This document shows, in pieces, positions 10,388 to 61,935 of a stretch of DNA of 64,000 bases. A program made the translations under genes and the position numbers. Under the pieces are notes generated by a model, which saw only the letters and a list, made by a program, of their open reading frames with translations, was not told the DNA's origin and did not search any database. Source of the stretch: Gammaproteobacteria bacterium (GTDB lineage Bacteria > Pseudomonadota > Gammaproteobacteria > Eutrophobiales > Eutrophobiaceae). Position 1 is the first letter of the stretch. Each line of letters starts with the position of its first letter. Where the stretch lies: contig OZ241347.1 in the NCBI GenBank assembly GCA_965200295.1, positions 2,615,272-2,679,271 on the forward strand, read 5' to 3'.

Positions 10388-10417
10388 AACCTCTAAAAAT
10401 GCCCTCCGTGGCATTTT
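10388..10417. repeat. left piece of a palindromic MITE-like element (cctctaaaaatgccctccgtggcatttt) interrupted by the IS110 element
   Basis: the right arm stops after ggcatttt; the missing tagag... resumes at 12204. Confidence 0.7.
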
Positions 10418-12203
10418 GCTATGTAACTTAATTATACCACTCTGTCATTAGGGCGCGCGCGGGTGGGTCTGCACAATGTGAGACCGTGAAGGGCGCCGGC
10501 GTTGCGGCGTGGCTCGCTCTGGCGTATGAGGTGGCCCCGCGTTGGCCTGTGGCCGTGAGGGAGCGTTGCGGCGACGCTGGCAGGTTGACCGGGGGATGTC
10601 AGGCGGCTTCGGGCATGTCAGGGGCTCTGTTGGGGGTGGGGTAGCCATATTTCTGTAGCATTTTGACCCAGCGCGGGGCATTGCGTTTGACCATGAGGGC
10701 CTCGTAGTCGGTGTGCGGGTCCTGGTAGGGCTGGCCGGTAATGAGCATGCGGTAGAGGGTACGCAGCAGTTTGTGTGCGGTGGCGACGGTGGCACGTTTG
10801 TAGCCGCGGCGCACGGTGAGGGCTTTATGGTAGCCTTGGAACTGGCAGTGGTGGGTGCGAGCGGCGCCGTGGGCGCACTCGATGAGCAGGGTGCGCAGGT
10901 GCGGGTTGCCCTGTCGGGTTCGGCCGTGGCGGCGTTTGCCGGCGCTTTCGTTGTTGCCGGGGCACAGGCCGGCCCAGGCGGCGCAGTGGCGGGCGGTGGG
11001 GAAGACCTTCACATCGGGGCCGAGTTCGATGAGCAGCGCGCGTGCGGCGGCGTGGTCGATGCCCGGCAGGGTCATCAGCAGGTCGAGTTGGGCCTGGTAG
11101 GGGGCGAGGTGTTGCCGGATGAAGGCATCGTACTGGGCGATACGGGCGTTGGCGTTGTCGAAGGCGGCGAGTTGGTCTTGGAGGACGAAGCGGGCCTCGG
11201 GGCGCAGGGTGGCGCTGAGTGCGTCGCCCAGGGCTGCCAGTCGGGGACGGACATGGCCGGAGAGGGTGGGCAGGATAGCTGCCGGGGTCAGTCCGGCGAC
11301 CAGGCCGTCGAGGATACGGCGACCGTTGACGCCGAACAGGTCTGAGAGGACTCCGCCGACCCGGAGACCGGCACCGTCGAGGCATTGATGGATGCGGGTC
11401 CGCAGGGTGGCGCGCAGGCGCACCACCTTGTGGCGTTGCCGTGACACCTTGCGCAGGGCGCGAAAGTCGGCGGGCGGCACGAAGCTGGGGCGGCACAGCC
11501 CGAACTGGCAGATACGCGCCAGCCACAGGCTGTCGGCGATGTCGGTCTTACGACCTTTGAGCTGCTTGACGTGCTGGGCATGCACTAAGAGGGGTTCGAT
11601 GCCGGCGCTCTCTAAGGCCTCGAAGACCACCTCCCAATAGATGCCCGTAGCTTCCATCACGGCGGCGCTGACCCGGTGCTCAAGCAGCCAGCCGGTCAGC
11701 TCGCGCAGGCCACTGGGCAGGGCGTTGAAGGTGCGGGTGTGAGTCTCGGCCGCCACGCCGGACTGTGCCAGACGCACGCTGGCAGTGATTTGCATCTTGT
11801 GTACGTCCAGACCCGCCGCGCGGGCGTGGATGACGTGTAAGGTATCAGTGTGTATAGTGTCAGGCATAACGCGTCCTCCGAAGTAAGTGCAAGTGTAGTC
11901 AGGGGCAAGCGCGGGCGGTCAACGGTTAGCAGGCTCGTTTCCGGGTGGGAAACGGCGCATTTTGCTATGCGTCCTCGACGACCTGCGTCGGGTACAAGGC
12001 GGGGCACGATGCCGTTGACCGGGAACAGTTTAGAGACGGGCTTATCAAGCACCGTAAAAAAGAGCGTTCTCGTTTCCCGCGCCTGCCCCGATAGTGTGCA
12101 TCAGGATGAGGCGTTAGCCAACGTCGGGGCTGCGGGGTGCCCGTACCCCCGGCGTTTCTCAGTTACATACCGGCGGGGTGTGCAGCGCTCTGATCATGAA
12201 GGT
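10418..12203 (-). mobile_element. IS110-family insertion sequence (~1.79 kb, no terminal inverted repeats) inserted into a palindromic repeat element
   Basis: boundaries inferred from the split repeat element (10388-10417 and 12204-12322); one internal DEDD-transposase gene. Confidence 0.7.
10599..11867 (-). CDS. IS110-family transposase (DEDD N-terminal domain plus transposase_20 C-terminal domain)
   Basis: 422 aa; GLDVHK motif near the N-terminus; typical IS110/IS1111 architecture. Confidence 0.9.
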   Translation of the reverse strand: MPDTIHTDTLHVIHARAAGLDVHKMQITASVRLAQSGVAAETHTRTFNALPSGLRELTGWLLEHRVSAAVMEATGIYWEVVFEALESAGIEPLLVHAQHVKQLKGRKTDIADSLWLARICQFGLCRPSFVPPADFRALRKVSRQRHKVVRLRATLRTRIHQCLDGAGLRVGGVLSDLFGVNGRRILDGLVAGLTPAAILPTLSGHVRPRLAALGDALSATLRPEARFVLQDQLAAFDNANARIAQYDAFIRQHLAPYQAQLDLLMTLPGIDHAAARALLIELGPDVKVFPTARHCAAWAGLCPGNNESAGKRRHGRTRQGNPHLRTLLIECAHGAARTHHCQFQGYHKALTVRRGYKRATVATAHKLLRTLYRMLITGQPYQDPHTDYEALMVKRNAPRWVKMLQKYGYPTPNRAPDMPEAA

Positions 12204-12322
12204 TTAGAGACGGAAACGAAAAAATGTGATTTTTCGTTTCCTTCATTTTCAAACACTTACGTGCTTAAAAATGGCAGCATGTCCCTATGCTGCACGGCCA
12301 CCTCTAATTTTTAGAGGTGGCC
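12204..12322. repeat. remainder of the long (five-hairpin) composite palindromic element, reverse orientation, ending in the gccacctctaatttttagaggtggc hairpin
   Basis: reverse complement matches the long copies at 38385-38526 and 51573-51720 almost base for base. Confidence 0.75.
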
Positions 12323-12377
12323 TAATGATTAACATCAAGCACACTGTTGCGGCGTTAGGTCATAGGAGTTATCGTTT

Positions 12378-13748
12378 ATGATTGGCATATTGCAAATGCT
12401 GCTGGCGTTCATCGTGGCGCTGGGAGTCCTGATCACGTTCCATGAGTTCGGCCACTTCTGGGTGGCTCGACGTTGTAACGTCAAGGTCCTGCAATTTGCG
12501 GTGGGCTTCGGGCGGCCGTTGTGGCGGCGCAAGTTCGGCGCTGATGACACCGAATTTGTCATTGGCATGGTGCCGTTGGGCGGCTACGTGAGAATGCTGG
12601 ATGAACGCGAGGCGCCGGTGTCGGCAGCCGAGCAGGGCCGGGCCTTTAACAACAAATCGCTGGGGCAACGATTCGCCATTGTTGCCGCCGGCCCCATTTT
12701 CAATTTCATCTTTGCCATCCTGGCGTACTGGCTGGTCTTCATAATTGGCATTACCGGGCTCAAGCCGGTGCTGGGTTCGGTGCAGGACGGCAAGCCGGTG
12801 GCGCAGTCCGGTTTGCAGGCGGGCGATGAGATTATTGCCATCGACGGGCAGGCGACGCCGACCTGGAATACCGCCTTGGAATATCTGGTGGCCGGCGTGG
12901 TCGAAGGCGATACTGCGGCGCTACGGGTACGCGACGGGCGCGGCGCCGAGCGGGCGCTGACGCTGGACCTGGGCGCCATTTCTATCGACGCAATGGCCGC
13001 GGGCAACCTGCTGGACTTGCTGGGTTTCGAGCCGGCGCGCCCGCGCGCGCCGGCGACGCTGGGGCAGGTCAGCTACCAGGGCGCGGCCTGGTGGGGCGGT
13101 CTGCGTGAGGCTGATGAAATCGTGGCCGTTGACGGCGTGCCCGTGCAGGGTTGGCAGCACTGGGTTGAGCTGATCAGGGCGGCGCCTGATACGCCTATGA
13201 CTGTCACCATAGCCAGAGACGGCGCCACCATAGACATGGTAGTCACGCCCGAGGCAAAGACCAGTGAGCAGGGCGAACGCATCGGCTTTATCGGGGTCGG
13301 TCTCGACCCTGCGGCCGGTATGGATGACTCCCTGTTGGCACGCGAAGCCTATCCCTGGCATCAGGCGGCATGGAAAGGAGTAGTTAAAACCATTGATATG
13401 TCTGTTATGACCCTGCAGATATTAGGGCGCATGATTACCGGTCAGGCCTCCCTGAAGAACCTCAGCGGCCCGGTCAGCATTGCCCAGTACGCAGGACAGA
13501 CCGCGCAACTGGGTATAGTTGCATTCCTGGGTTTCCTGGCGCTGGTCAGCATCAGCCTGGGGATTTTGAATCTGCTGCCGATTCCCATGCTCGACGGCGG
13601 TCACCTGTGTTACTATCTGGTAGAGTTTGTCAAAGGCAGCCCGGTGTCGGACGCGGTGCAACTGCTGGCCCAGCGCGTGGGGCTGGTGCTGTTGTTCAGC
13701 CTGATGGCGCTGGCGATTTACAATGACGTCCTGAGACTGGTCGGTTAA
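12378..13748 (+). CDS. rseP: sigma-E regulator site-2 protease RseP (zinc metalloprotease)
   Basis: HEFGH zinc motif at the N-terminus; PDZ domains; C-terminal LDGG motif; AGGAG RBS. Confidence 0.9.
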   Translation: MIGILQMLLAFIVALGVLITFHEFGHFWVARRCNVKVLQFAVGFGRPLWRRKFGADDTEFVIGMVPLGGYVRMLDEREAPVSAAEQGRAFNNKSLGQRFAIVAAGPIFNFIFAILAYWLVFIIGITGLKPVLGSVQDGKPVAQSGLQAGDEIIAIDGQATPTWNTALEYLVAGVVEGDTAALRVRDGRGAERALTLDLGAISIDAMAAGNLLDLLGFEPARPRAPATLGQVSYQGAAWWGGLREADEIVAVDGVPVQGWQHWVELIRAAPDTPMTVTIARDGATIDMVVTPEAKTSEQGERIGFIGVGLDPAAGMDDSLLAREAYPWHQAAWKGVVKTIDMSVMTLQILGRMITGQASLKNLSGPVSIAQYAGQTAQLGIVAFLGFLALVSISLGILNLLPIPMLDGGHLCYYLVEFVKGSPVSDAVQLLAQRVGLVLLFSLMALAIYNDVLRLVG

Positions 13749-13772
13749 AATAGCTCGTAGCTTTGCTTATTT

Positions 13773-16700
13773 ATGGCGAGAGACAGGCAAAATCCTGCGT
13801 GGCTTGCTGCCTTGTTGGCGGCATCGCTGCTCATCCTGACCAGCCTGCCTGCCCAAGTCCTGGCGCAGCAGGTGCTCGTCAGCAACCTCGGCCAAGCCGA
13901 CTTCGCCACCGCCAGCCCCATTGCCAGCTTGCTTGGCGTGTTCGATCACGCCCAGCAATTCACCACTGGCAGCAACAGCGCAGGCTACTGGCTGAGCAGC
14001 GTCGAGATTGAATTCGGCCGACTCGACGCCGGCTTCCCTTTTTCGGTGTCGATTCGCACCAATGCCAGCGGCTCGCCGGGAACAGTGGTGGGTACACTGG
14101 CGAATCCCTCCTACACCGCGTTCACCACCGACACGGTGCTGAAGTTCACGGCGGCGGGCGACGGCATCGCCCTTGCGGCCAGCACGTCGTATTTCCTCGT
14201 CCTCGACGTCACTAGCGACTCCGGCAGCAACTTCGCCACTTGGCGGGTCACCACCTCAATGAGCGAGGACAGCGGCGGCGCCAGCGGCTGGAGCATCGCC
14301 GATCTGCACCGCTTACGGCAGAACGTGGCTGACGCTGCATGGGTCAACAACGTAGTCACCTCCACCCTCAAGATCCGCATCAACGGCTCGGCCGTCACCC
14401 TCCCCACGGTCACCATCGCCCGCGTTGCCACGCCGGTCACCGAAGGCGCGGCTGCCCGCTTCACCGTCAGCCGCACGGGCGCGACCACGGGGGCGTTGGC
14501 GGTGCAAGTGTCGGTGTCCGAGAACAGTGCTGGCGGGCAGAACTTCGTGGCGTCAACCAACGAAGGCGCTAAATCAGTCAGCATTCCTATGGGTTCCGCA
14601 TCGGCGGTCTATTCCGTGGCGACCGTGGGCGATGCCATCGACGAGCCGGACGGCGCGGTGACCGTGACGCTGGCGAGCGGTTCCGGCTATACCGTCGGCA
14701 GCCCGTCAACGGCGAGCGTGATGGTCAACGACGACGACCTGCCGGTTGTCACCATTACCAGCGGTGCATCGTCGGTGACGGAGGGCACGGCGGCAAGCTT
14801 CACGGTGACCCGCGCCGGTCTGACGACGGCGGCGCTGACGGTGAACGTCAATGTCGCGGATGTCGCGGGCAGCGATTTCGTGGCGTCGGACGACGAAGGC
14901 GCGGACACGGTGACGATCCAGGCGGGACAAGCCTCGGCAGCCTACAGCGTCGCCACCGTGGCGGACAGAGTGGTTGAGGCGAGTGGAAATGTGATAGTTA
15001 CCGTATCGACGGGCACGGGCTATACCGTCGGTAGTCCGCCATCCGCGAACGTGATGGTTAACGACGACGATACCGCTGCCGTGCTCATCAACGGCGCGGA
15101 CAGCAACATCACGCTTTCAGTCGGCGAGGACGACGGCACCGCCACCTACACCATCCGGCTCGACAGTCAGCCGAGCCACAATGTCACGGTCACAGTGAGT
15201 TCGGCCAGCGAAAACACAGCCACCGTGAACAAGGCGGGCGGCTCGGCCGGCGAGACGCAGACGCTCACCTTCACGCCGAGCGGCACCGGCGCGTGGAATG
15301 TCGCGCAGACCATCACTATAACCGGTGTCAACAACACTAGCGACGATGCCAACAACCGGCGCACTTCGCTCATCACCCACACGGCGGCTTCGAGCGACGC
15401 CAATTACAGCGGCATCACCCCCATCCCGACCGTCACAGTCACGGTGACCGACGACGACACGCCCGAGTTGACCGTGTCGGCACAGGGCGGCGTCACAACC
15501 GTCAACGAGAACGGCGCCGCCGCGACGATCATCGTCACCTCGAATATTCAAGTCGACGGCTCAATCGACTACGGCCAGCCGAGCGTGTCCACGGGCGGCG
15601 CCGTCAGTGCCGACGGAACGACTATTGCTGGCGGCAACACGAGCAACACCTATACCGTCAGCGCGAGCGACAACAACCGCGACGAGGCCGACTGGTCGAT
15701 CACCACCGGCATTGCCGCCGGCACTGGCTACACACTCGGCTCGCCGAGCGCCGTCATGCTCACTGTTCGCGACGACGACCCGACGGTCGTCTCGCTCGCT
15801 GGCGGTGGCCGCGTGTTCGAAGGCGAGGGGACGACATTCACGGTCACGCTTGGTCGCGACCTCGCCGCCGGCGAGATCATTGACGTGCCGCTGGCCATCA
15901 CCGGTGCTGGCATCACCCCGAGCGACTGGCGTTTGGCGCTTGCGAGCGGCATGGGTCTCAACACAGGCGTGACGCTGAATGGCGCCAACACAGCCACGCC
16001 GCAGCTTCGCTTCGCAGGCGCCGGCGCGCGCACGGCGACGCTGACGCTGACCGCCGAGGCGAGTAGCGGCGGCAAGACAATACGAGTGGAGCTAGGACCG
16101 GATGGCAGCGGCGCCAACGGGTTTGATCGCAGCGGTCTTGGCACCAACGTCGGCGGCGGCGCGGACCCGCACGCCACGGCTCTTCGAATCATGCTGGTGG
16201 TCACTGCCGATACCGTCGTCAACGACCGCGACTTCCTCGCTTTTGTGCGTGCCCCTGGCGAAACATCGGCATCCAGGCGGACTGAAGGCTCGCGTCTGAC
16301 GCTGTCCGTCCACCGTATCGCCTTCACGTCCGACAACAACAACCTGCACACGCCAGACGACTGGGGGTTCCGGCTCTGCTTCACCGGCGCCGCGACGCCC
16401 GGCGCGGACTTTTCGGTCAGCCACGGCGGCGGGCGCACATCGCTCGATCAAGAGGGCTGCACACGGACGAACAGCGCGGAGGACGGCACCGCGTTGCCCG
16501 CGCGACTGAGCGTCGCGCGCTTCTACATCAAGCTCTTGCACGACGATTTGGACGAGAGCGATGAGCGCGTTGTCGCGACCTTGACGCGAACGATTAACAC
16601 CGGGGTTTCCGGGCAAGGATTGAGTGAGTTTCGCTTCACCATCAGCGAGCCGCCCCTGATCGACAAGGTGCGCCACTACACCAGTGAAATTTGGCGCGGC

Positions 16701-23598: not shown

Positions 23599-23666
23599 GG
23601 AGAGCCGCTGATTTTCAGGGGCGCCTTAAAAGCAATTTCGAGCCACACAACGAAGGTTACGCTGCT

Positions 23667-24886: not shown

Positions 24887-26013
24887 AAGTCGGCATTGTA
24901 GCAGGGGAGCCGTCGGGGGACTTTCTGGGCGCGCAGCTGATTGCAGACCTCAGGGCACAACGGCCCGGCCTCAAGGTGGCCGGCATAGGCGGCCCGGCGT
25001 TGCGCGCGGCAGGTTGTGAAGTCCTGTACCCGATGGAAAAACTGGCGGTGATGGGCCTGGTGGAAGTGCTGGGGAAGTTATGGGCGCTGAGCCGGTTGCG
25101 CGCGCGTCTGGCAGACTACTTCAGCAATGATCCGCCGGATGTGTTCATCGGCGTGGACGCGCCTGATTTCAACCTTGGTCTGGAACGGAAGCTGCGTGAA
25201 AAAGGCGTTAAGACAGTGCATTACGTCTGTCCCACAGCCTGGGCCTGGCGTCCCTGGCGGACCTATGGCATCAAGCGCGCGGCGCAGCGCTTGCTGTCCT
25301 TGTTTCCCTTCGAGGAAGCATTTTTCCGCAGCCGTGGGGTTAACGTCCATTATGTCGGGCATCCCCTGGCGCGCCAGGTGGCGTTGGCAGCGGACGCGGC
25401 CGGCGCGCGTCAACGTCTGGGGCTGGCGGCTGACGTGCTTACGGTAGCCTTGTTGCCGGGCAGCCGCGCGGCGGAATTAAACAGGCTGGTGCGTCCGTTT
25501 ATCGACGCTGCAGCCTGGCTGGCTGCGCGCCATGAGCAGATCTGTTTCATCAGCAATGCCATCAATGCCGAGGCGGCACAACAGCTGCGCGCGGCGGCCG
25601 CGCGCCGGGGCATACAGTTGCTGGTGGTGCGCGACCGTAGCGCCGATACCCTGGCCGCGGCGGATGTCGCCCTGGTTGCTTCGGGTACGGTCACCTTGGA
25701 GGCCATGCTGCACAAGACGCCGCTGGTCGTGGCTTACCGGATGCACAGCCTGTCTTACTGGCTGCTGCGAGCCATGATCAGGGTAAAATTTGTTGCCCTG
25801 CCCAACCTGCTGGCGCAGACGCGGCTGGCGCCCGAATATTTCCAGTCGGATTGTCGGGCGGAGGTGCTGGGCCCGGCCCTGCAATACTGGCTGGAGCATC
25901 CGCAGCAGACGCAAGCCTTAATGCGCCGTTTCACCGAATTGCACTATGCACTGCGCAATGCCGATGCCAGCGCCGCACAAGTAGTGCTGGATTTGATTGA
26001 TGGGAACCTCTAA
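24883..26013 (+). CDS. lpxB: lipid-A-disaccharide synthase
   Basis: GTG start overlapping the lpxA stop; conserved [13 protein letters not shown]. Confidence 0.9.
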
Positions 26014-26027
26014 TTTTAGAGGTGGCC
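26003..26027. repeat. short palindromic element (gaacctctaattttagaggtggcc) in the lpxB-rnhB junction
   Basis: minimal form of the repeat family; abuts the rnhB start codon. Confidence 0.7.
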
Positions 26028-26029
26028 TG

Positions 26030-33544: not shown

Positions 33545-33587
33545 GGCCACCTCTAAAAATGCCACGGAGGGCATTTTTAGAGGTTCC
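33545..33587. repeat. short palindromic element (ggccacctctaaaaatgccacggagggcatttttagaggttcc) between the divergent phrB and argC
   Basis: canonical 14-bp-arm form with a 7-nt loop. Confidence 0.8.
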
Positions 33588-33647
33588 CATAATATGGGGA
33601 TAAGGTTATCATCTCAACTGGCACACAGATTTCAGGCATGTGACAGA

Positions 33648-35839: not shown

Positions 35840-35908
35840 CGCGTGCGCGTCAAGTAGCGTTTCGCATCATTGATGTTGCGCGGCAACAAAACAGCGTATA
35901 TACTGCAC

Positions 35909-35935
35909 GGGCGCCTCTGATTTTTAGCGGCGCCC
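35909..35935. repeat. diverged short palindrome (gggcgcctctgatttttagcggcgccc) upstream of the TBDR
   Basis: same GC-clamp/AT-core architecture as the repeat family. Confidence 0.5.
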
Positions 35936-38317: not shown

Positions 38318-38332
38318 GGAGTTTTTTTGGCG

Positions 38333-38366
38333 CCCCTGAAAATGCCCGTCCGGGCATTTTCAGGGG
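38333..38366. terminator. diverged palindrome cccctgaaaatgcccgtccgggcattttcagggg directly after the TBDR stop (bidirectional hairpin)
   Basis: 14-bp perfect stem in the repeat-family style; likely acts as a terminator. Confidence 0.45.
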
Positions 38367-38384
38367 ATGCTACAGCAGTTACAG

Positions 38385-38526
38385 GGCGCCTCTAAAAATT
38401 AGAGGCGCCCGTGCAGCATAAGGATATGCTGCCATTTTTAAGCACGTTAGTGCTTGAAAATGAAGGAAACGAAAAATCATACTTTTTCGTTTCCGTCCCT
38501 AAAAATGCCATGAATGGCATTTTTAG
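38385..38526. repeat. long composite palindromic element (five consecutive hairpins, ~142 bp), + orientation
   Basis: near-identical to 51573-51720 and to the reverse complement of 12204-12322. Confidence 0.85.
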
Positions 38527-38531
38527 GTTGC

Positions 38532-39848
38532 CTACAGATCAATAAACAGGAAGCGGGCCAGGAAAATCAGCGCCAACAACCACACCCCCGCGCTGATATC
38601 TGCCCGCTGCCCGCGTGCCAGTTTCATGCTCACGTAGGTGATGAAGCCCACCGCAATGCCGTCCGCGATGGAAAAGGTCAACGGGATTGCCACGATGGTG
38701 AGCAGCGCCGGGAGCAGTTCGGTGGCATCGTCCCAATCCAGCGCTTGCATGCCGCTCAGCATCAGTAACGCGACATAGATCAGGGCGCCAGAGGTGGCAA
38801 ACTCCGGCACCATGCGCGCCAGCGGCGCCAGGAATATGGCCAGCAGGAACAGCAGGCCCACCGTCACCGCGCTCAGTCCGGTGCGGCCGCCGCCGGCAAT
38901 ACCTGCCACGCTTTCCACGTAGCTGGTGACCGGTGTGCAACCCAGGCCGGCGCCGACTACGCTGGCGCAACTGTCGGCCTTCAACGCCCGGCTCAGGTTC
39001 TGTACCCGGCCGTCCTCGTCCACCAGGCCGGCGCGGTGGGCGACGCCCATCAGGGTGCCGGTGGTGTCGAACAGGTTCACGAACAGGAATGCCGCGATGA
39101 TGCTGACCATGGCTACGTCCAAGGCGCCGATAATATCCAGTTGCAACAGGGTTGGCGCCAGGTTCGGTGGCGCCGACACCAGCCCCTGGTAGTTGGTCAG
39201 CCCGGCCAGCAGGCCGACGCCGGTCAGCGCCAGGATGCCGAGCAGGATGGCGCCGGGCACGGCGCGCACGGCCAGGCTGGCGATCAGCAGGAAACCCAGC
39301 GCCGCCAGCATGGGCTCAGGCCGGGTCAGGTCACCCAGGGTCAGGATAGTGGCAGGATTGGCGACCACGATGCCACCGTTCTGCAGGCCGATAAAGCCAA
39401 TGAACAGGCCCACGCCACAGCCCATGGCCAGACGCAGGTTCATGGGGATGCTGTTCAGCATCCAGGCACGCAGGCGGGTGACGCTGATCACCACGAACAA
39501 CACACCGGACAGGAACACCGCACCCAGGCCCACCTGCCAGCTGTAACCCAGACTCCCGACCACCGTGTAGGTGAAGAACGCGTTCATGCCCATGCCCGGT
39601 GCCAGACCCACGGGCCAGTTTGCGTATAACCCCATGATCAGGCAAGCCAGCGCCGAGGCCAGACAGGTTGCGGCAAAACTGGCGCCGTAGTCCATACCCG
39701 CAGCCGCCATCAACTGCGGGTTGACAAAGATAATGTAGGCCATGGTAACAAACGTGGTGCACCCGGCCAGCAGTTCCACGCGCACGCTCGTGCCGTGTGC
39801 GGCAAGCCGGAAACGGCGTTCCATAAAGCCGGAGATTATATTCGTCAT
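38532..39848 (-). CDS. NCS2-family nucleobase permease (AzgA/GhxP-type adenine/guanine/hypoxanthine transporter)
   Basis: 438 aa; ~13 TM segments; N-terminal TTFVTMAYIIFVNP typical of the AzgA clade. Confidence 0.8.
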   Translation of the reverse strand: MTNIISGFMERRFRLAAHGTSVRVELLAGCTTFVTMAYIIFVNPQLMAAAGMDYGASFAATCLASALACLIMGLYANWPVGLAPGMGMNAFFTYTVVGSLGYSWQVGLGAVFLSGVLFVVISVTRLRAWMLNSIPMNLRLAMGCGVGLFIGFIGLQNGGIVVANPATILTLGDLTRPEPMLAALGFLLIASLAVRAVPGAILLGILALTGVGLLAGLTNYQGLVSAPPNLAPTLLQLDIIGALDVAMVSIIAAFLFVNLFDTTGTLMGVAHRAGLVDEDGRVQNLSRALKADSCASVVGAGLGCTPVTSYVESVAGIAGGGRTGLSAVTVGLLFLLAIFLAPLARMVPEFATSGALIYVALLMLSGMQALDWDDATELLPALLTIVAIPLTFSIADGIAVGFITYVSMKLARGQRADISAGVWLLALIFLARFLFIDL

Positions 39849-42798: not shown

Positions 42799-42842
42799 GG
42801 GCGCCTCTAAAAATGCCACGGAAGGCATTTTTAGAGGTTGCC
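42799..42842. repeat. short palindromic element (gggcgcctctaaaaatgccacggaaggcatttttagaggttgcc)
   Basis: canonical form; lies between the pnt operon and the ATP-grasp gene. Confidence 0.8.
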
Positions 42843-45523: not shown

Positions 45524-45555
45524 GACGTACAAAATAAAAGAGTTTGTACGTCATG
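45521..45555. promoter_or_regulatory. 13-bp perfect inverted repeat (catgacgtacaaa-N9-tttgtacgtcatg) spanning the antitoxin start codon
   Basis: candidate autoregulatory operator of the RHH-PIN operon. Confidence 0.45.
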
Positions 45556-46404: not shown

Positions 46405-46499
46405 TACAAACCTCCGATGGTTATGGTGACAATATGAATCATAGGGGCAATGGTGTTACTTTTCAAGATATTTCGGATAAAATGAGGTTTGTGCTGAAC

Positions 46500-46964: not shown

Positions 46965-47055
46965 GGAGAGGTGGCAGAGCGGTTGAATGCACCGGTCTTG
47001 AAAACCGGCAAGGGTTGATAGCCCTTCGTGGGTTCGAATCCCACCCTCTCCGCCA
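46965..47055 (+). tRNA. tRNA-Ser (anticodon UGA), class II with long variable arm
   Basis: cloverleaf: acceptor GGAGAGG/CCUCUCC; anticodon loop CUUGAAA; T-loop GGTTCGAATCC; encoded CCA. Confidence 0.9.
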
Positions 47056-47067: not shown

Positions 47068-47100
47068 AACAAGGGCGGTCATTGTGCCGCCCTTGTTTGG
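47068..47100. terminator. GC-rich hairpin (aacaagggcgg-N8-ccgcccttgtt) followed by TTTGGTTGG
   Basis: intrinsic-terminator-like; lies between the tRNA and the convergent Cys-rich gene. Confidence 0.45.
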
Positions 47101-49628: not shown

Positions 49629-49629
49629 G

Positions 49630-50598
49630 TCAATCTACTCCAAAATCCATGCCCAAGGCTTTGAGGTGGCGGCGATATTTTGAGGTGAACAGGTCAGAAC
49701 GCAGGTGTAGTTCCTCGCTTAAGTCCATGGGCAATAATTCCGGTCGCTGGGATTCCAGGATGGGGATGTCCTGACCGATGATCAGGTCGTGAAAGTCTTT
49801 GATGTCCTGCTCAGTCAAATCCGCCGCATAATTGTACGCGGCGATGAAGTGCGCCCAGGATTTAGTTTCACTTTCCGGCCTGACAGCGAACATCAGCACA
49901 AATTTCTCCTTATTGGCGCGCCCGCCGATGTGCTTGACGAAATAGACCGTCAACGGCGCCAGGATACCGAAGTCATACCAGGCATCGCCGCCTTTCCCGG
50001 TGCCGTCCGGATCGGGCTGGAAATAGCGTACATCCTTGACAAAAAAGCCGTCCTCATGTGCTTCCACCTGGTAATCATCAATGACCGCGTGGTCGCGCGC
50101 ACCCAATATGCCGTCGTGCAGAATGGGCGGGTGCGACAGATCCAGGAAGTTCTCCACCACCCGCGGCGCGGCGGCATTGATCTCGTAGGGACCGCAGGGG
50201 ATGACCCGGTAATCCGGGTCGTTGAACTGGGGCAAATCGGGCAATGGCCGGGTTGCATCACCCAGGTTGACCCAGATGAGGCCGGCATGTTCCTGCGCCT
50301 GATAGACTGCGGTCGCCCGGGCCTTGGCCGGTATTCTGAGATCAGGATGGGCGGGGATAAATTCACACTGGCCGTCCCGGTTGTATTCCCAGCCGTGATA
50401 AGCGCAACGCAAGCGGTTGTTGCAGACGCTGCCCAGGCTCAGCCTGACGCCGCGATGCACGCACAGGTCTTTCCAGGCGCAGACCTTGTCTCCCGCCCGC
50501 CACAGCACCAGGTCTTCGCCCAGCACGGTGGCTGGTTTGGGTTTGTCAGCGGCCAGGTCGCGGGCCAGACCTACCGGGTGCCAGTAGTGTTTAATCAT
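49630..50598 (-). CDS. Rieske [2Fe-2S] non-heme-iron oxygenase (pair A, short form)
   Basis: CVHRG...CAYHGW; ENFLDLSHPPILH; 322 aa; stop is 2 nt from the next gene start. Confidence 0.85.
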   Translation of the reverse strand: MIKHYWHPVGLARDLAADKPKPATVLGEDLVLWRAGDKVCAWKDLCVHRGVRLSLGSVCNNRLRCAYHGWEYNRDGQCEFIPAHPDLRIPAKARATAVYQAQEHAGLIWVNLGDATRPLPDLPQFNDPDYRVIPCGPYEINAAAPRVVENFLDLSHPPILHDGILGARDHAVIDDYQVEAHEDGFFVKDVRYFQPDPDGTGKGGDAWYDFGILAPLTVYFVKHIGGRANKEKFVLMFAVRPESETKSWAHFIAAYNYAADLTEQDIKDFHDLIIGQDIPILESQRPELLPMDLSEELHLRSDLFTSKYRRHLKALGMDFGVD

Positions 50599-51550: not shown

Positions 51551-51572
51551 CGGTGGGTCGCGTCCACTTGTG

Positions 51573-51720
51573 GGCACCTCTAAAAATTAGAGGTGGCCGT
51601 GCAGCATAGGGATATGCTGCCATTTTTAAGCACGTAAGTGATTGAAAATGAAGGAAACGGGAAATCGCACTTTTCCGTTTCCGTTTCTATAAATGCCACG
51701 GAGGGCATTTAAGAGGTTCC
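51573..51720. repeat. long composite palindromic element (five hairpins, 148 bp), + orientation
   Basis: near-identical to 38385-38526; terminal repeats cctctaaaaat / atttaagagg. Confidence 0.85.
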
Positions 51721-51729
51721 CTTGTGTTA

Positions 51730-55377: not shown

Positions 55378-55470
55378 ATGGGGCATCCTCCACTAATAGT
55401 TGCGCTACCGGAGTAACGGCTGCCGAGCCTCCCCATGATTGACGAAAACGAACAACGGGTAAATCTATCC

Positions 55471-55498
55471 AGGTAACGAACCTGTATCTTAAATTCAC
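55471..55498. promoter_or_regulatory. conserved 28-bp upstream box, copy A (aggtaacgaacctgtatcttaaattcac)
   Basis: ~94 nt upstream of the TBDR start; 26/28 identical to copy B. Confidence 0.5.
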
Positions 55499-55570
55499 CT
55501 TTCTGGTAAGAAACACCTGAAATTGACCTCCCTGACACCTAAGCAGACACGGCACATCCATAATGCTGCG

Positions 55571-55598
55571 CGGGCGCCTCTAATTTTTAGAGGTGGCC
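55571..55598. repeat. short palindromic element (gggcgcctctaatttttagaggtggccc)
   Basis: minimal form; immediately 3-prime of the Rieske B1 gene. Confidence 0.75.
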
Positions 55599-56582
55599 CT
55601 AACACGTCCCATATCTCAAGCCCAGTTCCTTTAACCAGCGCCGGTAGGCGTTGGAGGACTTGTCGGCCGGTTGATGCAGTTCGGCGGTGGGGTTTAAGGG
55701 CAGGCATTGGGGGCGTTGGGATTCCAGCACCGCCTGGTCTTGCAGGAAGATGGTGTCCTGGAAATCCCGGAAATATGCCTCTGGTTCGTCGTGACCGTAG
55801 TTCATGGCCAGCACGAACCAGGCGCGAATGCGGGTTTCTGCCAACGGTTGAATGGACAACAGGATCAGGTCGGACGGCTGCTCGCCGGCGGCGCCGGGTT
55901 CCTTGGTCAGCATTACGGTCAATGGTTGCAGTACCCGGTAGGAGTAAGCCACCTTGACGCCGCCCGCGCTGTTGACGTTGGCGCGAGGTTGCCAGGCGCT
56001 GACATTGGTGACCCGAATCTCGTTGTCCACCACTGCCACTTCATAGTCATCCATCTCCGTGTAGGGTTCTTCACCCAGGTAGCCGCTATGGACAAAGGGA
56101 AAGTGGGACAGGTCCAGAAAGTTTTCCACTGCGCGCGGGCCGCTGGTGGCGACGTCATAAGGGCCGGTGATGACCAGGTGATAATCCTCATCCACGCCGT
56201 GAAACTCAGGCGCCTCGCCGGCTGGGTCGCCAAGACAGACCCAGACCAGACCGTATTTTTCCCGTACCTGCAGGGTTGTAACCCGGGCCCGCCCGGAAAT
56301 GGGTTGCTGCGGGTGGGCCGGCATGAGGGTGCATTGCCCGGCGCTATTGAAATGCCAGCCGTGGTAGGGACAGACCAGGGTGTCACCTCCCCTGATCTCG
56401 CCCAGCGACAGCTTGCTGCCGCGATGGGGGCAACGGTCCAGCCAGGCGTGCAGCTGGCCGTTGCTGCGCCACAGCAGCAGGTCGCGCTCCAGCAGCTGCG
56501 TGGCGATCTTGCCGCCTTCGGGTACATCGTTGACATTGGCCACTACGTGCCAGTCGTTAAGCATGATGGGGTCGTCGGTCAT
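55599..56582 (-). CDS. Rieske non-heme-iron oxygenase (pair B, short form; paralog of 49630-50598)
   Basis: CPHRG...CPYHGW; ENFLDLSHFPFVH; 327 aa. Confidence 0.85.
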   Translation of the reverse strand: MTDDPIMLNDWHVVANVNDVPEGGKIATQLLERDLLLWRSNGQLHAWLDRCPHRGSKLSLGEIRGGDTLVCPYHGWHFNSAGQCTLMPAHPQQPISGRARVTTLQVREKYGLVWVCLGDPAGEAPEFHGVDEDYHLVITGPYDVATSGPRAVENFLDLSHFPFVHSGYLGEEPYTEMDDYEVAVVDNEIRVTNVSAWQPRANVNSAGGVKVAYSYRVLQPLTVMLTKEPGAAGEQPSDLILLSIQPLAETRIRAWFVLAMNYGHDEPEAYFRDFQDTIFLQDQAVLESQRPQCLPLNPTAELHQPADKSSNAYRRWLKELGLRYGTC

Positions 56583-56587
56583 CGTTA

Positions 56588-57652
56588 TTAAGTTCCTGCC
56601 ATGGGCGCGCCCAGGTTGAATTTCTCTGCCAGCGCCTTGCGGTATGCCAGCGACATGCGGTCGGCGGGGATATTGATCTCTTCCCGCAAGTCCAGGGGCA
56701 GTTCCTGCGGGTATTGTGATTCCACCAAGGGTTGGTCTTCGTCGTTAATAGCGACGGTTTCCTGCACCTGCTCTGCGGGGTTGGGGTTGCCGAAGTTATC
56801 GGCGGTAATCTGGAAGATGCCGCTCTGCCGCGCGGAAATCGGACATACCGTGTCCAGGATCACCTGGATATAATCGGATTCCTGCACCGCCACTTCCAGC
56901 AGGGTGGAAAACGGAAACGTCAGTTCGTAGCTGTACACGACTTCCCGTTGCTGCAAGTCGTCCCTGCCGTCGGGAAAGCGATTCAGCAGTTCCAGATAAG
57001 GGATGTGGAAACTCAAGCCGTAATCGGTGTGCTGCACCTGATAGCGCGGATAAGCCGCGTCCGGGCCGCCACCAAACGTGGCGCCGTGCACCCAGGGGAA
57101 ATGCGCTACGTCATTGAAGTTTTCCACGTGGCGTCCGGCGGCGACCTGCCAGGCGCCCGGCGGCACATAGTTGGGTTGATATACAGGGTCTTCCAGGTGG
57201 CGCCAATACGGTAGCGGCCAGATCGGTTCGTCCTTGAGACACACCCAGAGGATGCCGTAACGCACCTCGCTGCGGTAGGTGCGCAAGCGCAACTTGTCCG
57301 GTATGGCGGCCGTGGGGTCGGCGATGGAGGGTATCTTGCGACACACCCCGTTGCCGTCATAATGCAGGCCGTGCATGGGGCAGATGAGCAGGTCATCCTG
57401 CACGCGGCCGAGGCTTATTTTTACCCCCCGGTGCGGGCACTGGTCTTTGGCCACGGTGATGCCGGTGCCGGTGCGGTAGAGCGCCAGGTTCACGTCCAGC
57501 AACTTTGCTGCGAGCGGTCGGTCTGTTATATCATGGACAAAGGCAACCGGATGCCAGAATGCAGCCAGAATGTGCCAGTCACTTTCCCGAAAGCTGCAAC
57601 CAGGAGGCAGGTCGGTAGCTGTGAGCGTCGATTGATTGGTAGTCCGAAACAT
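56588..57652 (-). CDS. Rieske non-heme-iron oxygenase (pair B, long form; paralog of 48579-49628)
   Basis: CPHRG...CPMHGLHY; ENFNDVAHFPWVH; 354 aa. Confidence 0.85.
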   Translation of the reverse strand: MFRTTNQSTLTATDLPPGCSFRESDWHILAAFWHPVAFVHDITDRPLAAKLLDVNLALYRTGTGITVAKDQCPHRGVKISLGRVQDDLLICPMHGLHYDGNGVCRKIPSIADPTAAIPDKLRLRTYRSEVRYGILWVCLKDEPIWPLPYWRHLEDPVYQPNYVPPGAWQVAAGRHVENFNDVAHFPWVHGATFGGGPDAAYPRYQVQHTDYGLSFHIPYLELLNRFPDGRDDLQQREVVYSYELTFPFSTLLEVAVQESDYIQVILDTVCPISARQSGIFQITADNFGNPNPAEQVQETVAINDEDQPLVESQYPQELPLDLREEINIPADRMSLAYRKALAEKFNLGAPMAGT

Positions 57653-57737
57653 CAGTGATCAGGGGTGTCAAAAGGTCGCACTATGCCTTGCATTGTCAGC
57701 GATAACAAGCGCCGGATGAATAGCCCCAGGTAACAAA

Positions 57738-57765
57738 TCTGTATCTTAAATTCACATCAGGGCGC
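57738..57765. promoter_or_regulatory. conserved 28-bp upstream box, copy B (aggtaacaaatctgtatcttaaattcac)
   Basis: ~86 nt upstream of the Rieske B2 start. Confidence 0.5.
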
Positions 57766-57767
57766 CT

Positions 57768-57816
57768 CTAAAAATGCCCTCCATGGCATTTTTAGAGGCG
57801 CCCTGATGTGATATGC
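57768..57816. repeat. short palindromic element (cagggcgcctctaaaaatgccctccatggcatttttagaggcgccctg)
   Basis: canonical form with extended GC clamp; between the divergent Rieske operon and the HDAC-like gene. Confidence 0.8.
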
Positions 57817-58929: not shown

Positions 58930-58978
58930 CATGTCCGTGCAGTTGAGCCGACGCACACTTTATGATGAGGATAACAAC

Positions 58979-59821: not shown

Positions 59822-59834
59822 CCCGTGCGTCGGC

Positions 59835-59847
59835 TTTAGAGGTGGCC
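59835..59847. repeat. solo terminal-repeat half (tttagaggtggcc) of the palindromic element family
   Basis: marks the left edge of the low-GC islet. Confidence 0.4.
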
Positions 59848-61206: not shown

Positions 61207-61452
61207 ATGGAAACACAGGTTATTGTTCGCATCGACTCGCGACTTAAACAGCAAGCTGTGGGCCTGGCCAAGGCCGAAGGTAAAAATGTAAGTCTGGTAA
61301 TCCGGGAACTACTTGAAAAATATGTAAAAGACCGGGATATATCACTGTATATTGATGATCTGTGGGCACGTATGGGTAACAATTTGAAAAATGCAGGGAA
61401 GACACAAAGTGATGTGGAGCAGGCTATCAGGGATGTGAGGAAGCGCTCTTGA
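61207..61452 (+). CDS. ribbon-helix-helix antitoxin-like protein
   Basis: 81 aa; N-terminal beta-strand VIVRIDSRLKQQA; 4-nt overlap (ATGA) with the downstream PIN gene. Confidence 0.6.
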   Translation: METQVIVRIDSRLKQQAVGLAKAEGKNVSLVIRELLEKYVKDRDISLYIDDLWARMGNNLKNAGKTQSDVEQAIRDVRKRS

Positions 61453-61865
61453 CAAGGGTAGTGGTTGATACAAATATTTTTGTATCTTCATTTTTTGGCG
61501 GGAAGCCGAAAAAGGTCATCGATTTATGGAAGCGGGGTCAAATCACGATTTGTTTATCCCGGCATATTATTGAAGAGTATGTCGAAGTTCTGATGAGGCT
61601 GGGTTTGCAAAATGAGCAGCAGATTGAAGCGCTGCTGGATGTATTTGCAAGGAATTATCATTCTGTTTACACGGCACAAACACCGGAGTTAGGCACAATC
61701 GTCAAGAATGATCCGGATGATGATAAGTTTTTAGAATGTGCGATAGCATTGCAGGCAGAGTATATTGTTTCAGGAGACAAGGCATTGCTGGAAGTTGAGA
61801 AGTACATGAATGTCTCAATCCTGTCACCTGCGGATTTTCTGCAAGAGACATGGCTTAAGGTATGA
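61449..61865 (+). CDS. PIN-domain toxin-like protein (PF13470-type)
   Basis: 138 aa; VVVDTNIFVS at the N-terminus; internal E and D residues at canonical PIN spacing. Confidence 0.75.
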   Translation: MTRVVVDTNIFVSSFFGGKPKKVIDLWKRGQITICLSRHIIEEYVEVLMRLGLQNEQQIEALLDVFARNYHSVYTAQTPELGTIVKNDPDDDKFLECAIALQAEYIVSGDKALLEVEKYMNVSILSPADFLQETWLKV

Positions 61866-61902
61866 AATGAACAGAACCGGCTGCTGTTGTTATTCGATTA
61901 TG

Positions 61903-61935
61903 GCCACCTCTAAATTCTCATGAAGATTTAGATGT
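61903..61935. repeat. diverged palindromic element (ggccacctctaaattctcatgaagatttagatg)
   Basis: right edge of the low-GC islet. Confidence 0.45.

What the first reader, a model, noticed from the sequence alone, without database searches (positions are those of the whole stretch)
10388..61935. MITE-like palindromic element family (terminal repeat CCTCTAAAAATGCC) in at least 12 copies, short and long forms
At least 12 copies share a GC-clamped hairpin whose arms are cctctaaaaatgcc / ggcatttttagagg. Short forms of ~35-45 bp have a 7-nt loop of acggagg or its complement. Minimal forms read cctctaaaaattagagg. The short or minimal copies are at 10388 (truncated), 12296, 26003, 33545, 35909, 38333, 42799, 55571, 57768, 59835 and 61903. 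Three long forms of 120-148 bp, at 12204-12322 (reverse), 38385-38526 and 51573-51720, are near-identical. Each long form contains five consecutive perfect hairpins bounded by the same terminal repeats. That is the architecture of a non-autonomous MITE with internal structured RNA. Copies sit almost exclusively at gene boundaries, often abutting start codons (rnhB, argC, rseP) or convergent gene ends. That placement suggests roles as bidirectional terminators, mRNA stabilisers or promoter donors. The repeat family is seen directly in the sequence. The MITE, terminator and RNA-element interpretations are inference. The family is also the insertion target of the IS110 element.
Basis: partly seen in the sequence, partly recalled or inferred. 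Interest (0 to 1): 0.75.

Follow-up and report, generated by a model that had tools for sequence, protein, structure and literature searches.

The report
Hairpin-rich MITE family, IS110 landing site
The repeats are a real, previously undescribed family of small non-coding "jumping" DNA elements (MITEs) in an uncultured gammaproteobacterium, and an RNA-guided IS110 insertion sequence lands at one fixed site inside them; this is a clear new example of known kinds of mobile DNA, not a new kind.

Summary
The repeat family is real. The window holds 13 loci, plus a 14th cut by the left edge, and all are intergenic. The full element is about 150 bp. It has imperfect terminal inverted repeats (GGSNNCCTCTAAAAAT…ATTTTTAGAGGNNSCC) and five consecutive hairpins (A-B-C-D-A'). 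The 44-bp "short" and 26-27-bp "minimal" forms have the same ends and read as internal deletions between direct repeats. Eight of 13 complete copies carry a 4-bp (possibly 5-bp) A/T-rich target-site duplication (permutation p about 1e-4 on the first 12). A relative at about 90% nucleotide identity (L007) shows clean filled versus empty sites. These features make it a MITE, not a RAYT-type REP. All five hairpins keep pairing through compensatory changes. Element orientation relative to genes is mixed, and both strands fold equally well, so there is no evidence for an RNA role. The autonomous partner was not found. An IS110-family element (10418-12203) splits one long form. The identical transposase sits at the same site and in the same orientation in six other copies, and its 5' non-coding region carries guide-like matches to both junctions. 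The terminator, stabiliser and promoter roles remain untested. Novelty: new member of a known kind.

The parts
1..10 (.). Right arm (AGAGGTGGCC) of a minimal copy cut off by the window edge. The whole copy lies between pheA and hisC.
   Evidence: The same-species contig L217 9945-9971 reads GGGCACATCTAATTTTTAGAGGTGGCC and is flanked by TTGA on both sides.
10385..10417 (-). A' (right) end of long form 1, separated from the rest of the element by the IS.
   Evidence: nhmmer model positions 119-150.
10418..12203 (-). IS110-family insertion sequence, 1786 bp, inserted at CTCTAA^AAAATGCC in the left arm of hairpin A'.
   Evidence: Boundaries come from comparison with six other insertions (L001-L006) and with uninterrupted long forms. 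They are uncertain by the 1-2 A residues of the core.
10599..11867 (-). IS110-family transposase/recombinase, 422 aa.
   Evidence: Pfam PF01548 DEDD_Tnp_IS110 plus PF02371 Transposase_20.
11914..12084 (-). Candidate bridge/seek RNA region in the 5' non-coding end of the IS. 12030-12039 (rc) is CCGTCTCTAA, which equals the left target plus core. 11962-11969 (rc) is CATAGCAA, which equals the IS right end plus core.
   Evidence: The architecture is compared with PMC11208160. RTG and RDG equivalents were not identified. No Rfam hit.
12204..12322 (-). Remainder of long form 1: hairpins D, C, B and A. It lies 55 nt upstream of rseP.
   Evidence: E = 1e-40.
23599..23625 (.). Degenerate minimal hairpin (GCCGCTGATTTTCAGGGGCGCC) between lpxD and fabZ.
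   Evidence: It is orthologous to an intact minimal copy in L007 at 8719-8744.
26002..26027 (-). Minimal form between lpxB and rnhB, with TSD TGAT at 25998-26001 and 26028-26031. It supplies the lpxB stop codon.
   Evidence: The site is empty in L007 and L008, each of which has a single CGAT or TGAT.
33545..33588 (+). Short form (left TIR, 6-nt loop, right TIR) in the divergent phr/argC gap, with TSD ATAA.
   Evidence: The site is empty in L007, which has a single ATGA.
35892..35935 (-). Truncated and decayed long form (hairpin A plus half of B) between the bactofilin gene and a TonB-dependent receptor gene.
   Evidence: E = 1e-5.
38327..38368 (.). Diverged A'-type hairpin (CCCCTGAAAATGCC-CGTC-GGGCATTTTCAGGGG).
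38384..38532 (+). Long form 2, with five hairpins and TSD TACA. It lies between the convergent TonB-dependent receptor and permease genes. Its last base overlaps the permease stop codon.
42799..42842 (+). Short form in the divergent pntA/ddl-like gap, with TSD ACAA.
51572..51721 (+). Long form 3, with TSD TTGT (CTTGTG if the end bases are counted). It lies between convergent AraC-family and MFS genes.
55550..55598 (-). Truncated long form (hairpin A plus decayed B) between a Rieske oxygenase gene and a TonB-dependent receptor gene.
   Evidence: E = 4e-8.
57752..57811 (-). Short form converted into a perfect palindrome with 27-bp arms. The element proper is 57760-57803. Its flanks are inverted, not direct, repeats.
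59835..59847 (.). Half-site only (TTTAGAGGTGGCC).
   Evidence: Weak.
61903..61937 (.). Diverged hairpin starting GCCACCTCTAAA. Membership in the family is doubtful.

Best explanation

The full-length element is about 150 bp and has no ORF. Its imperfect 16-19-nt terminal inverted repeats read GGSNNCCTCTAAAAAT … ATTTTTAGAGGNNSCC. Between them lie five local hairpins in the order A-B-C-D-A'.

Most likely a transposase encoded elsewhere in the genome recognises the ends and inserts the element by staggered cleavage. Insertion goes into short A/T-rich sites and duplicates 4 (perhaps 5) bp. This step is inferred; the transposase was not found.

The 44-bp short form has exactly the sequence expected from a deletion between the two direct CTCTAAAAAT repeats in the left arms of A and A'. 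The 26-27-bp minimal form is the two ends joined. Both keep the ends, and both occur as independent insertions with their own duplications.

Insertions persist only in intergenic DNA, sometimes exactly at stop codons. The hairpins are kept paired through substitutions. This could reflect selection on ssDNA, cruciform or RNA structure. It could equally reflect template-switch correction of quasi-palindromes, of which 57752-57811 looks like a product.

An IS110-family element uses the left arm of hairpin A' (CCGTCTCTAA^AAAATGCC) as its specific, orientation-dependent insertion site. It probably finds the site through a bridge/seek RNA encoded in its 5' non-coding end.
For: - TIRs and form relationships: alignment of 9 long forms, plus the ends of the short and minimal forms.
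- TSDs: 7 of 12 complete copies have an abutting direct repeat of at least 4 nt (TACA, TTGT, ATAA, TCAA, ATAA, ACAA, ATCA), against about 10% of non-cognate flank pairs. Permutation p is about 1e-4. A 13th copy has TTGA. The left flank ends in A in 11 of 12 copies.
- Filled versus empty sites in L007 (92% LpxB identity, about 90% nucleotide identity) and L008:
  - bamA-skp is filled in L007 only.
  - lpxB-rnhB is filled in the window only.
  - The phr-argC gap carries two independent insertions about 35 bp apart and in opposite orientations.
  - Each empty site holds one copy of the duplicated 4-mer.
- Further copies next to unrelated genes occur in L001-L006, L145 and L217.
- The family is absent from the syntenic 21 kb of genomes at 80% LpxB identity or less.
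- All 13 window loci are intergenic.
- Structure: five hairpins with z = -15 as RNA on the + strand and -14 as DNA on the - strand. 98% of cells are paired and 10 of 57 pairs show double compensatory changes. No shuffle out of 500 reached these values. Slid controls gave 41-48% paired and 0-2 double changes.
- IS110: Pfam domains. Seven insertions at one site and in one orientation. Guide-like 10-nt and 8-nt matches in the left end.
Against: - No autonomous element with the same ends was found. Only about 120 kb from this species and its close relative could be read, and the only transposases seen (IS110, and a DDE_Tnp_1 IS in L002) have unrelated ends.
- Five of 13 complete copies lack a clean duplication.
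- The duplication length (4 or 5 bp) cannot be fixed, because the element starts with G and ends with C.
- The TIRs are short. Because each terminal module is itself a palindrome, part of the inverted-repeat appearance is automatic.
- Copies are fixed among same-species contigs at 99.6% identity, so there is no evidence of ongoing activity.
- Genome-wide copy number is unknown. My one exact-pattern genome scan was mis-specified (N7 instead of N6 in the loop), so its zero result means nothing.
Confidence: 0.8

Rival explanations
1. The elements are REP/BIME-type extragenic palindromes. They would be spread by a RAYT (REP-associated Y1/HUH transposase) acting on single-stranded hairpins, not by a DDE transposase.
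For: The units are short GC-clamped extragenic palindromes arranged in mosaic clusters of several hairpin types. Pairing is maintained by compensatory change. They are the target of an IS110-family element, as REPs are for IS621, ISPpu9 and ISPpu10 (PMC11208160).
Against: Variable 4-5 bp direct duplications flank the copies, and empty sites hold one copy of the duplicated bases. HUH/Y1 transposition does not produce such duplications (established knowledge of IS200/IS605 and RAYTs). There is no conserved 5' GTAG. Long and short forms share defined inverted ends. No Y1_Tnp gene occurs in the window, but the rest of the genome is unseen.
Confidence: 0.08
2. This is a sub-hypothesis of the MITE reading. 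The family would be a Tn3-family derivative, a TIME-like element, mobilised by a Tn3/Tn21-type TnpA.
For: The outer end GGGCACCTC..AAAA matches positions 3-17 of the Tn21 38-bp inverted repeat at 13 of 15 positions. Shuffle p is 2.5e-4, before correcting for my having picked this IR from memory. The IR sequence itself was verified in R100. A 5-bp reading of the duplication is possible in most copies, and targets are A/T-rich. TIMEs and Tn3-family elements make 5-bp, sometimes 6-bp, duplications (PMC13367494). IS1111-family elements are known to target Tn21-family TIRs (title of Partridge & Hall 2003, in the reference lists seen).
Against: The two ends resemble each other over only 16-19 nt, not about 38. 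There is no conserved inner TAAG. The copy at 33545 fits 4 bp and not 5. blastn of the long form against 72,556 plasmids, which are rich in Tn3-family ends, found nothing. No Tn3-family transposase was seen.
Confidence: 0.2
3. The copies are host-functional RNA or DNA signals, such as bidirectional terminators, mRNA-stabilising hairpins or promoter donors. Selection would explain their spread and conservation, and mobility would be incidental.
For: Hairpin B followed by CATTTTT on one strand, and hairpin D followed by TTCATTTT on the other, pass a simple terminator filter. Both intact long forms in the window lie between convergent genes. A weak promoter-like TTGAAA-18-CATACT lies inside the long form. 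Stems are preserved by compensatory change.
Against: Terminator-like sites are not enriched over shuffles (19 vs 16.3, and 21 vs 17.9). Promoter-like sites are only marginally enriched (13 vs 7.4 +/- 2.8, and 12 vs 9.6). The stems lack a strong GC stem plus free U-tract. Copies occur in both orientations and also in divergent and co-directional gaps (L007a is antisense between bamA and skp). Orthologous gaps in the sister genome lack them. G.U versus A.C singleton mismatches are 5 vs 2, which gives no clear strand signal. No Rfam match.
Confidence: 0.07
4. The copies are not independent insertions. The long forms would be flanks of a duplicated segment, or assembly artefacts.
For: Two copies (55550 and 57752) lie next to a shared 56-nt upstream region (D11) beside paralogous Rieske oxygenase genes.
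Against: Flanking genes of the three long forms are unrelated: mfd/rseP, TonB receptor/permease, and AraC/MFS. Similarity stops at the element ends. The same copies appear in ten independent assemblies of the species, and other copies appear in other contigs.
Confidence: 0.01

Closest known systems
Bacterial MITEs with structured or modular bodies, e.g. Neisseria Correia elements, enterobacterial ERIC/IRU, pneumococcal BOX and RUP (comparison from established knowledge, not tested here)
   Same: They are small, non-coding, high-copy and intergenic. They have terminal inverted repeats, short target duplications and internal-deletion size classes. Their strong secondary structure can affect transcripts.
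   Different: There is no sequence similarity to anything in Rfam, plasmids or phages. The body is five separate local hairpins, not one long fold-back. The duplication is 4-5 bp at variable A/T-rich sites, not the TA of Correia elements. The host is an uncultured gammaproteobacterial lineage whose nearest cultured relative has 46% LpxB identity.
[quoted passage not shown]
   Same: Both are non-autonomous. Both have G-rich outer ends, and here the end is 13/15 identical to the outer part of the Tn21 IR. A 5-bp duplication is possible, and targets are A/T-rich.
   Different: The TIRs are only 16-19 nt. There is no inner TAAG. At least one copy fits 4 bp only. No Tn3-family transposase was seen. 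At about 150 bp, the element is smaller than the one TIME whose size I read (MITESen1, 256 bp).
REP/BIME elements and REPINs with RAYT transposases
   Same: Both are extragenic GC-clamped palindromes arranged in mosaics of hairpin types. Both keep pairing through compensatory change, and both are favoured IS110-family targets.
   Different: Target-site duplications and defined inverted ends are present here. There is no GTAG motif, and no RAYT was seen.
IS110-family elements that occupy repeats: IS621 in E. coli REPs, ISPpu9 and ISPpu10 in P. putida REPs, and IS4321/IS5075 in the TIRs of Tn21-family transposons (PMC11208160, PMC12288879, PMC11187229 and their reference lists)
   Same: The recombinase has DEDD plus Transposase_20 domains. 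There are no TIRs. The long non-coding end lies upstream of the gene. Insertion is at a single site and in one orientation inside a repeated palindrome. RNA-guide-like matches to target and donor are present.
   Different: The target here is the terminal repeat of a MITE in a different, uncultured host. Only LTG-like and LDG-like segments could be recognised. RNA expression and guidance were not tested.

Membership tests
MITE (non-autonomous DNA transposon) | Small element (under about 300 bp) with no coding capacity. | tested here: met
   Sizes are 150, 44 and 26-27 bp, with no ORF.
MITE (non-autonomous DNA transposon) | Terminal inverted repeats shared by all size classes. | tested here: met
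   The ends GGSNNCCTCTAAAAAT / ATTTTTAGAGGNNSCC occur in long, short and minimal forms. Caveat: the terminal modules are themselves palindromes.
MITE (non-autonomous DNA transposon) | Target-site duplication flanking the copies. | tested here: met
   Eight of 13 complete copies have a duplication of 4 nt or more. Permutation p is about 1e-4 on the first 12. Three empty sites hold a single copy of the 4-mer.
MITE (non-autonomous DNA transposon) | Many dispersed copies with presence/absence polymorphism between related genomes. | tested here: met
   There are 14 loci in about 74 kb. Sites differ between the window and L007. The family is absent from the syntenic region of L008-L013. The whole-genome count was not obtainable.
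MITE (non-autonomous DNA transposon) | A cognate autonomous element with the same ends that encodes the transposase. | not testable with these tools
   None was found in the window or the fetched loci.
REP / REPIN with RAYT | Conserved GTAG (or similar) tetranucleotide at the 5' end of the palindrome, and insertion without duplication. | tested here: not met
   No GTAG is present. Variable direct duplications are present.
REP / REPIN with RAYT | A RAYT (Y1_Tnp) gene flanked by the repeats in the same genome. | not testable with these tools
   None occurs among the window ORFs scanned. The rest of the genome is not available.
TIME / Tn3-family derivative | About 38-bp ends homologous to Tn3-family inverted repeats (outer GGGG, inner TAAG). 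| tested here: inconclusive
   The outer 13 of 15 positions match the Tn21 IR. However, end-to-end similarity is only 16-19 nt, and TAAG is not conserved.
TIME / Tn3-family derivative | 5-bp (rarely 6-bp) target duplication. | tested here: inconclusive
   Most copies allow 4 or 5 bp, because the ends are G…C. The copy at 33545 fits 4 bp only. The criterion comes from PMC13367494.
IS110 family (the inserted element at 10418-12203) | Recombinase with a DEDD RuvC-like domain plus a Transposase_20 domain. | tested here: met
   PF01548 and PF02371.
IS110 family (the inserted element at 10418-12203) | Sequence-specific, orientation-specific insertion without TIRs or a long TSD. | tested here: met
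   Seven insertions lie at CTCTAA^AAAATGCC, all in one orientation.
IS110 family (the inserted element at 10418-12203) | Bridge/seek RNA in the longer non-coding end, with loops that pair to target and donor. | tested here: inconclusive
   The 336-nt 5' end holds CCGTCTCTAA (LT plus core) and CATAGCAA (LD plus core). The MFE fold puts CUCUAAAC and a U-run on the two sides of an internal loop. RTG and RDG were not identified. There was no Rfam hit at E-value 10 or below other than one chance-level snoRNA match (sR40, E = 9.2). Expression was not tested.
Intrinsic (bidirectional) terminator | GC-rich stem followed by a U-tract on the transcribed strand. | tested here: inconclusive
   Hairpins B and D pass a permissive filter on opposite strands. 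Site counts are not above shuffles, and the stems are AT-rich.

The most novel reading that the evidence does not exclude
The five-hairpin body may not be passive cargo. Its stems would be held by selection because the long form works as a two-way transcription stop or insulator between genes, or as a structured transcript. The resident IS110 element may have co-evolved with it. The IS left end carries a stretch resembling hairpin D plus the left target (12029-12077, nhmmer E about 0.9). That could mean its target-binding loop was copied from the MITE, making the MITE a self-renewing safe harbour for an RNA-guided recombinase.
Probability: 0.1. Interest if true: 0.5.

Novelty: new member of a known kind. 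Interest (0 to 1): 0.3.

Why it matters
The family gives a well-defined MITE for a poorly known, uncultured gammaproteobacterial lineage. Contig and sample names hint at sponge or other host-associated metagenomes, but I did not verify the habitat.

Practical uses:
- It explains why short-read assemblies of this organism break at these sites.
- It marks sites where gene ends have been remodelled, for example the lpxB stop codon.
- It offers a strain- and species-level marker.

It also adds a natural case of an IS110-type, presumably RNA-guided, recombinase whose target is the terminal repeat of another mobile element. That is useful comparative material for studying bridge-RNA target choice. 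None of this changes current understanding of MITEs or IS110 elements.

Tried and rejected
- Exact-pattern scan of the 185,579-species genome collection for the short hairpin. The zero result is therefore meaningless and must not be read as absence.
- Metagenome scan with the 17-mer TGAAAATGAAGGAAAYG. Only L145 holds a real long form.
- Viral-contig scan with the corrected pattern: no matches.
- Rfam at gathering and at permissive thresholds, on the window, the long form and the IS: only tRNA-Ser and chance-level hairpin matches.
- blastn of the long form against plasmids and phages: nothing meaningful.
- The DDE_Tnp_1 IS next to the IS110 gene in L002 as the possible parent: its ends (CGACTTCGACGGTTT…) are unrelated.
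- Using G.U versus A.C mismatches to decide whether one strand is selected as RNA: 5 vs 2 singletons plus one conserved T.G pair, which is too few to decide.
- The idea that the window's short form at phr-argC is a deletion derivative of the long form seen there in L007: rejected. They are separate insertions about 35 bp apart and in opposite orientations.
- Same-species contigs (L207-L216): all carry the same copies, so there is no within-species polymorphism to exploit.
- Attempt to read Partridge & Hall 2003: the paper is not held.

Full report
**Observation**

The repeat family is real.
- The 14-nt arm CCTCTAAAAATGCC occurs 7 times at up to one mismatch, against 0.06 expected from shuffles.
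- The 17-nt minimal core occurs 5 times against 0.00 expected.
- Direct-repeat search, blastn and an nhmmer profile of the long form recover nearly all listed loci and add others.
- Twelve of the 19 strongest hairpins in the window (arm of at least 10, at most 1 mismatch) belong to the family.

Several details needed correcting.
- The loop of the short form is 6 nt, not 7 (coordinates).
- The "truncated" copy at 10388, the "minimal" copy at 12296 and the "long form" at 12204-12322 are one element. It is split by a 1786-bp IS110-family element at 10418-12203.
- The long forms are 88-92% identical.
- 35909 and 55571 are truncated long forms (hairpin A plus half of B).
- 59835 and 61903 are weak.
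- Two copies were missed: one at 23599-25, and one cut by the window's left edge.

**Anatomy**

Nine long forms were aligned, from the window, L002, L004, L005, L007 (two copies) and L145. The unit is about 150 bp and consists of five consecutive hairpins:
- A: GGSNNCCTCTAA-loop-TTAGAGGNNSCC
- B: GCAGCATA-loop-TATGCTGC
- C: CATTTTTAAGCAC-loop-GTGCTTGAAAATG
- D: GGAAACGAAAAAT-loop-TTTTTCGTTTCC
- A': CTCTAAAAATGCC-ACGGAG-GGCATTTTTAGAGG

The outer ends form an imperfect inverted repeat (GGSNNCCTCTAAAAAT … ATTTTTAGAGGTTNCC).

The 44-bp short form has exactly the sequence produced by deleting between the direct repeats CTCTAAAAAT in the left arms of A and A'. It keeps an A-type left end and an A'-type right end. 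The minimal form is the two ends joined.

The long form folds into the five hairpins with z = -15 as RNA on the + strand, and equally well as DNA on the opposite strand (z = -14).

**Host and distribution**

The window carries housekeeping genes: hisC, tyrA, aroA, cmk, rpsA, mfd, rseP, bamA-skp-lpxD-fabZ-lpxA-lpxB-rnhB-dnaE-accA-tilS, argC and pntAB.

An LpxB-based scan of one genome per species gave the following:
- The nearest genomes are uncultured Gammaproteobacteria MAGs, at 92%, 80% and 66% identity.
- The nearest cultured genus is Salinisphaera, at 46%.

The family is present in the 92% relative, with three copies in 21 kb. It is absent from the syntenic region of the 80% and 66% relatives. 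Ten independent assemblies of the same species (99.6% identity) carry the same copies. A further long form sits beside nrdAB/lpd genes in a metagenome contig, L145.

I could not measure the genome-wide copy number. My exact-pattern genome scan used the wrong loop length, so its zero result is void. Local density is 14 loci in about 74 kb.

**Evidence for transposition**

*Target-site duplications.* I defined the ends symmetrically as 5 nt beyond CCTCT and AGAGG.
- Seven of 12 complete copies have an abutting direct repeat of at least 4 nt: TACA, TTGT, ATAA, TCAA, ATAA, ACAA and ATCA.
- Only about 10% of non-cognate flank pairs do. Permutation p is about 1e-4.
- A 13th copy has TTGA.
- The left flank ends in A in 11 of 12 copies. 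In a genome of about 59% GC, this points to an A/T-rich target preference.

*Filled versus empty sites.*
- The bamA-skp gap holds a long form in L007 and is empty in the window and L008.
- The lpxB-rnhB junction holds a minimal form in the window only. It is flanked by TGAT on both sides, and the empty sites hold one CGAT or TGAT.
- The phr-argC gap holds a short form in the window (ATAA on both sides, a single ATGA in L007). L007 has a separate long form about 35 bp away in the opposite orientation.

The duplication length cannot be fixed at 4 or 5 bp, because the element begins with G and ends with C. The copy at 33545 fits 4 bp only.

*Genomic position.* All 13 loci are intergenic, although only about 10.5% of the window is non-coding under my approximate gene model. 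Two insertions sit exactly on stop codons, those of lpxB and the permease.

**Hairpin conservation**

On the nine-sequence alignment:
- 98% of pair cells are standard pairs.
- 10 of 57 pairs show changes on both sides that keep pairing.
- No shuffle out of 500 reaches these values.
- Sliding the partners drops pairing to 41-48%, with 0-2 double changes.

This shows the palindromes are maintained, but not why. Both strands fold alike. G.U versus A.C singleton mismatches (5 vs 2) do not pick a strand. Copies lie in both orientations relative to neighbouring genes and in convergent, divergent and co-directional gaps.

The copy at 57752-57811 is a perfect palindrome with 27-bp arms. Its two arms and 8 nt of flank are mirror images. 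That is what intrastrand template switching would produce. The same process could generate "compensatory" changes without selection. This is an inference, not a demonstrated mechanism.

**Functional claims**

- A permissive terminator filter flags hairpin B on the canonical strand and hairpin D on the other strand.
- A weak promoter-like site lies inside the long form.
- Neither class is clearly enriched over shuffles.
- No Rfam family matches.

The terminator, stabiliser and promoter roles are therefore untested possibilities.

**The IS110 element**

The 422-aa ORF at 10599-11867 (minus strand) has DEDD_Tnp_IS110 and Transposase_20 domains. The identical protein occurs on 22 contigs. In all six contigs shown, as in the window, the element sits at CTCTAA^AAAATGCC in the left arm of hairpin A'. 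It is always in the same orientation relative to the MITE. At least five insertions are in long forms and one (L003) is in a short form. In L001 the left part of the host copy is off the contig, so its form is not known.

The 336-nt 5' non-coding end contains two guide-like segments:
- CCGTCTCTAA, which equals the left target plus an AA core.
- CATAGCAA, which equals the IS right end plus the core.

In the IS621 scheme, the left target guide and left donor guide pair with the bottom strands and so read like the top strands (PMC11208160). These two segments fit that pattern.

An MFE fold places CUCUAAAC and a U-run on opposite sides of an internal loop. Right-hand guides could not be identified, and nothing was tested experimentally.

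IS110-family elements are known to target REPs and transposon TIRs.

**Which transposase moves the MITE?**

This is unknown. No transposase other than IS110 occurs in the window. The DDE IS in L002 has unrelated ends.

One lead exists. The outer end GGGCACCTC..AAAA matches the outer part of the Tn21 38-bp inverted repeat at 13 of 15 positions. Tn3-family elements and their miniature derivatives make 5-bp duplications (PMC13367494).

Several points count against it.
- The two ends resemble each other over only 16-19 nt.
- There is no conserved inner TAAG.
- One copy fits a 4-bp duplication only.
- blastn against plasmids finds nothing.

I rate this sub-hypothesis at about 0.2.

**Verdict**

The MITE interpretation is well supported, at about 0.8 confidence. 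The IS110-target claim is confirmed. The RNA and terminator interpretations are unsupported but not excluded.

The family itself appears undescribed, but both phenomena are known kinds: a MITE with deletion derivatives, and an IS110 element occupying a repeat. I therefore file it as a new member of a known kind, with modest interest.

Noticed in passing
window 46496-46986 (tRNA-Ser at 46965-47055): A 155-nt unit is repeated 3.2 times at 100% identity. Each unit begins with the first ~22 nt of tRNA-Ser(TGA), and the complete gene starts in the last unit. This could be a real tandem duplication, attachment-site scars, or an assembly artefact.
   Followed up: partly
window 16838-17080: 27-nt in-frame tandem repeats (7 or more copies) lie inside the 1931-aa Calx-beta-like ORF at 13773-19568. 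Same-species contigs differ in this region (91-98% identity there, against 99.6% elsewhere).
   Followed up: no
window 57752-57811: A short-form copy has been converted into a perfect palindrome with 27-bp arms. Both arms are the A type, and 8 nt of flank are mirrored (CACATCAG / CTGATGTG) instead of directly duplicated. This looks like a template-switch product.
   Followed up: partly
window 26011-26013 and 38532-38534: The lpxB stop codon lies inside the inserted minimal element. In L007 and L008, lpxB instead runs on and overlaps rnhB. The permease stop codon overlaps the last base of long form 2 plus its duplicated TA. MITE insertion has therefore remodelled gene ends.
   Followed up: partly
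window 12029-12077 (minus strand), inside the IS: The IS left end has a stretch (GGGAAACGAGAACGC…CCCGTCTCTAAA) that resembles MITE hairpin D plus the left target. The match goes beyond the 10-nt guide, but nhmmer E is only about 0.9. It recurs in all IS copies.
   Followed up: no
window 55443-55498 and 57700-57755; genes 48579-50598 and 55599-57652: A 56-nt upstream region is shared at 77% identity. It lies next to two MITE copies and beside two pairs of paralogous Rieske/VanA_C oxygenase genes. It may be a common operator or promoter.
   Followed up: no
window 10049-10131 and 10162-10244: Two 83-nt stretches are 75% identical and lie just downstream of mfd. They look like paralogous small ORFs on the minus strand, between mfd and the IS-split MITE.
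   Followed up: no
L002 1695-3630: A second IS (DDE_Tnp_1 transposase, 551 aa; ends CGACTTCGACGGTTT…) is inserted immediately after the IS110 transposase stop codon in one metagenome contig.
   Followed up: partly
L004 about 60-75: The left end of a long form abuts a truncated GGTAACCTCTAAA, which is an A'-type end of another copy. This suggests a MITE inserted into a MITE.
   Followed up: no
window 6478-6505, 45521-45555, 47068-47097: Three strong hairpins are unrelated to the family. The one at 47068-47097 lies just after tRNA-Ser and scores as terminator-like on the minus strand.
   Followed up: no
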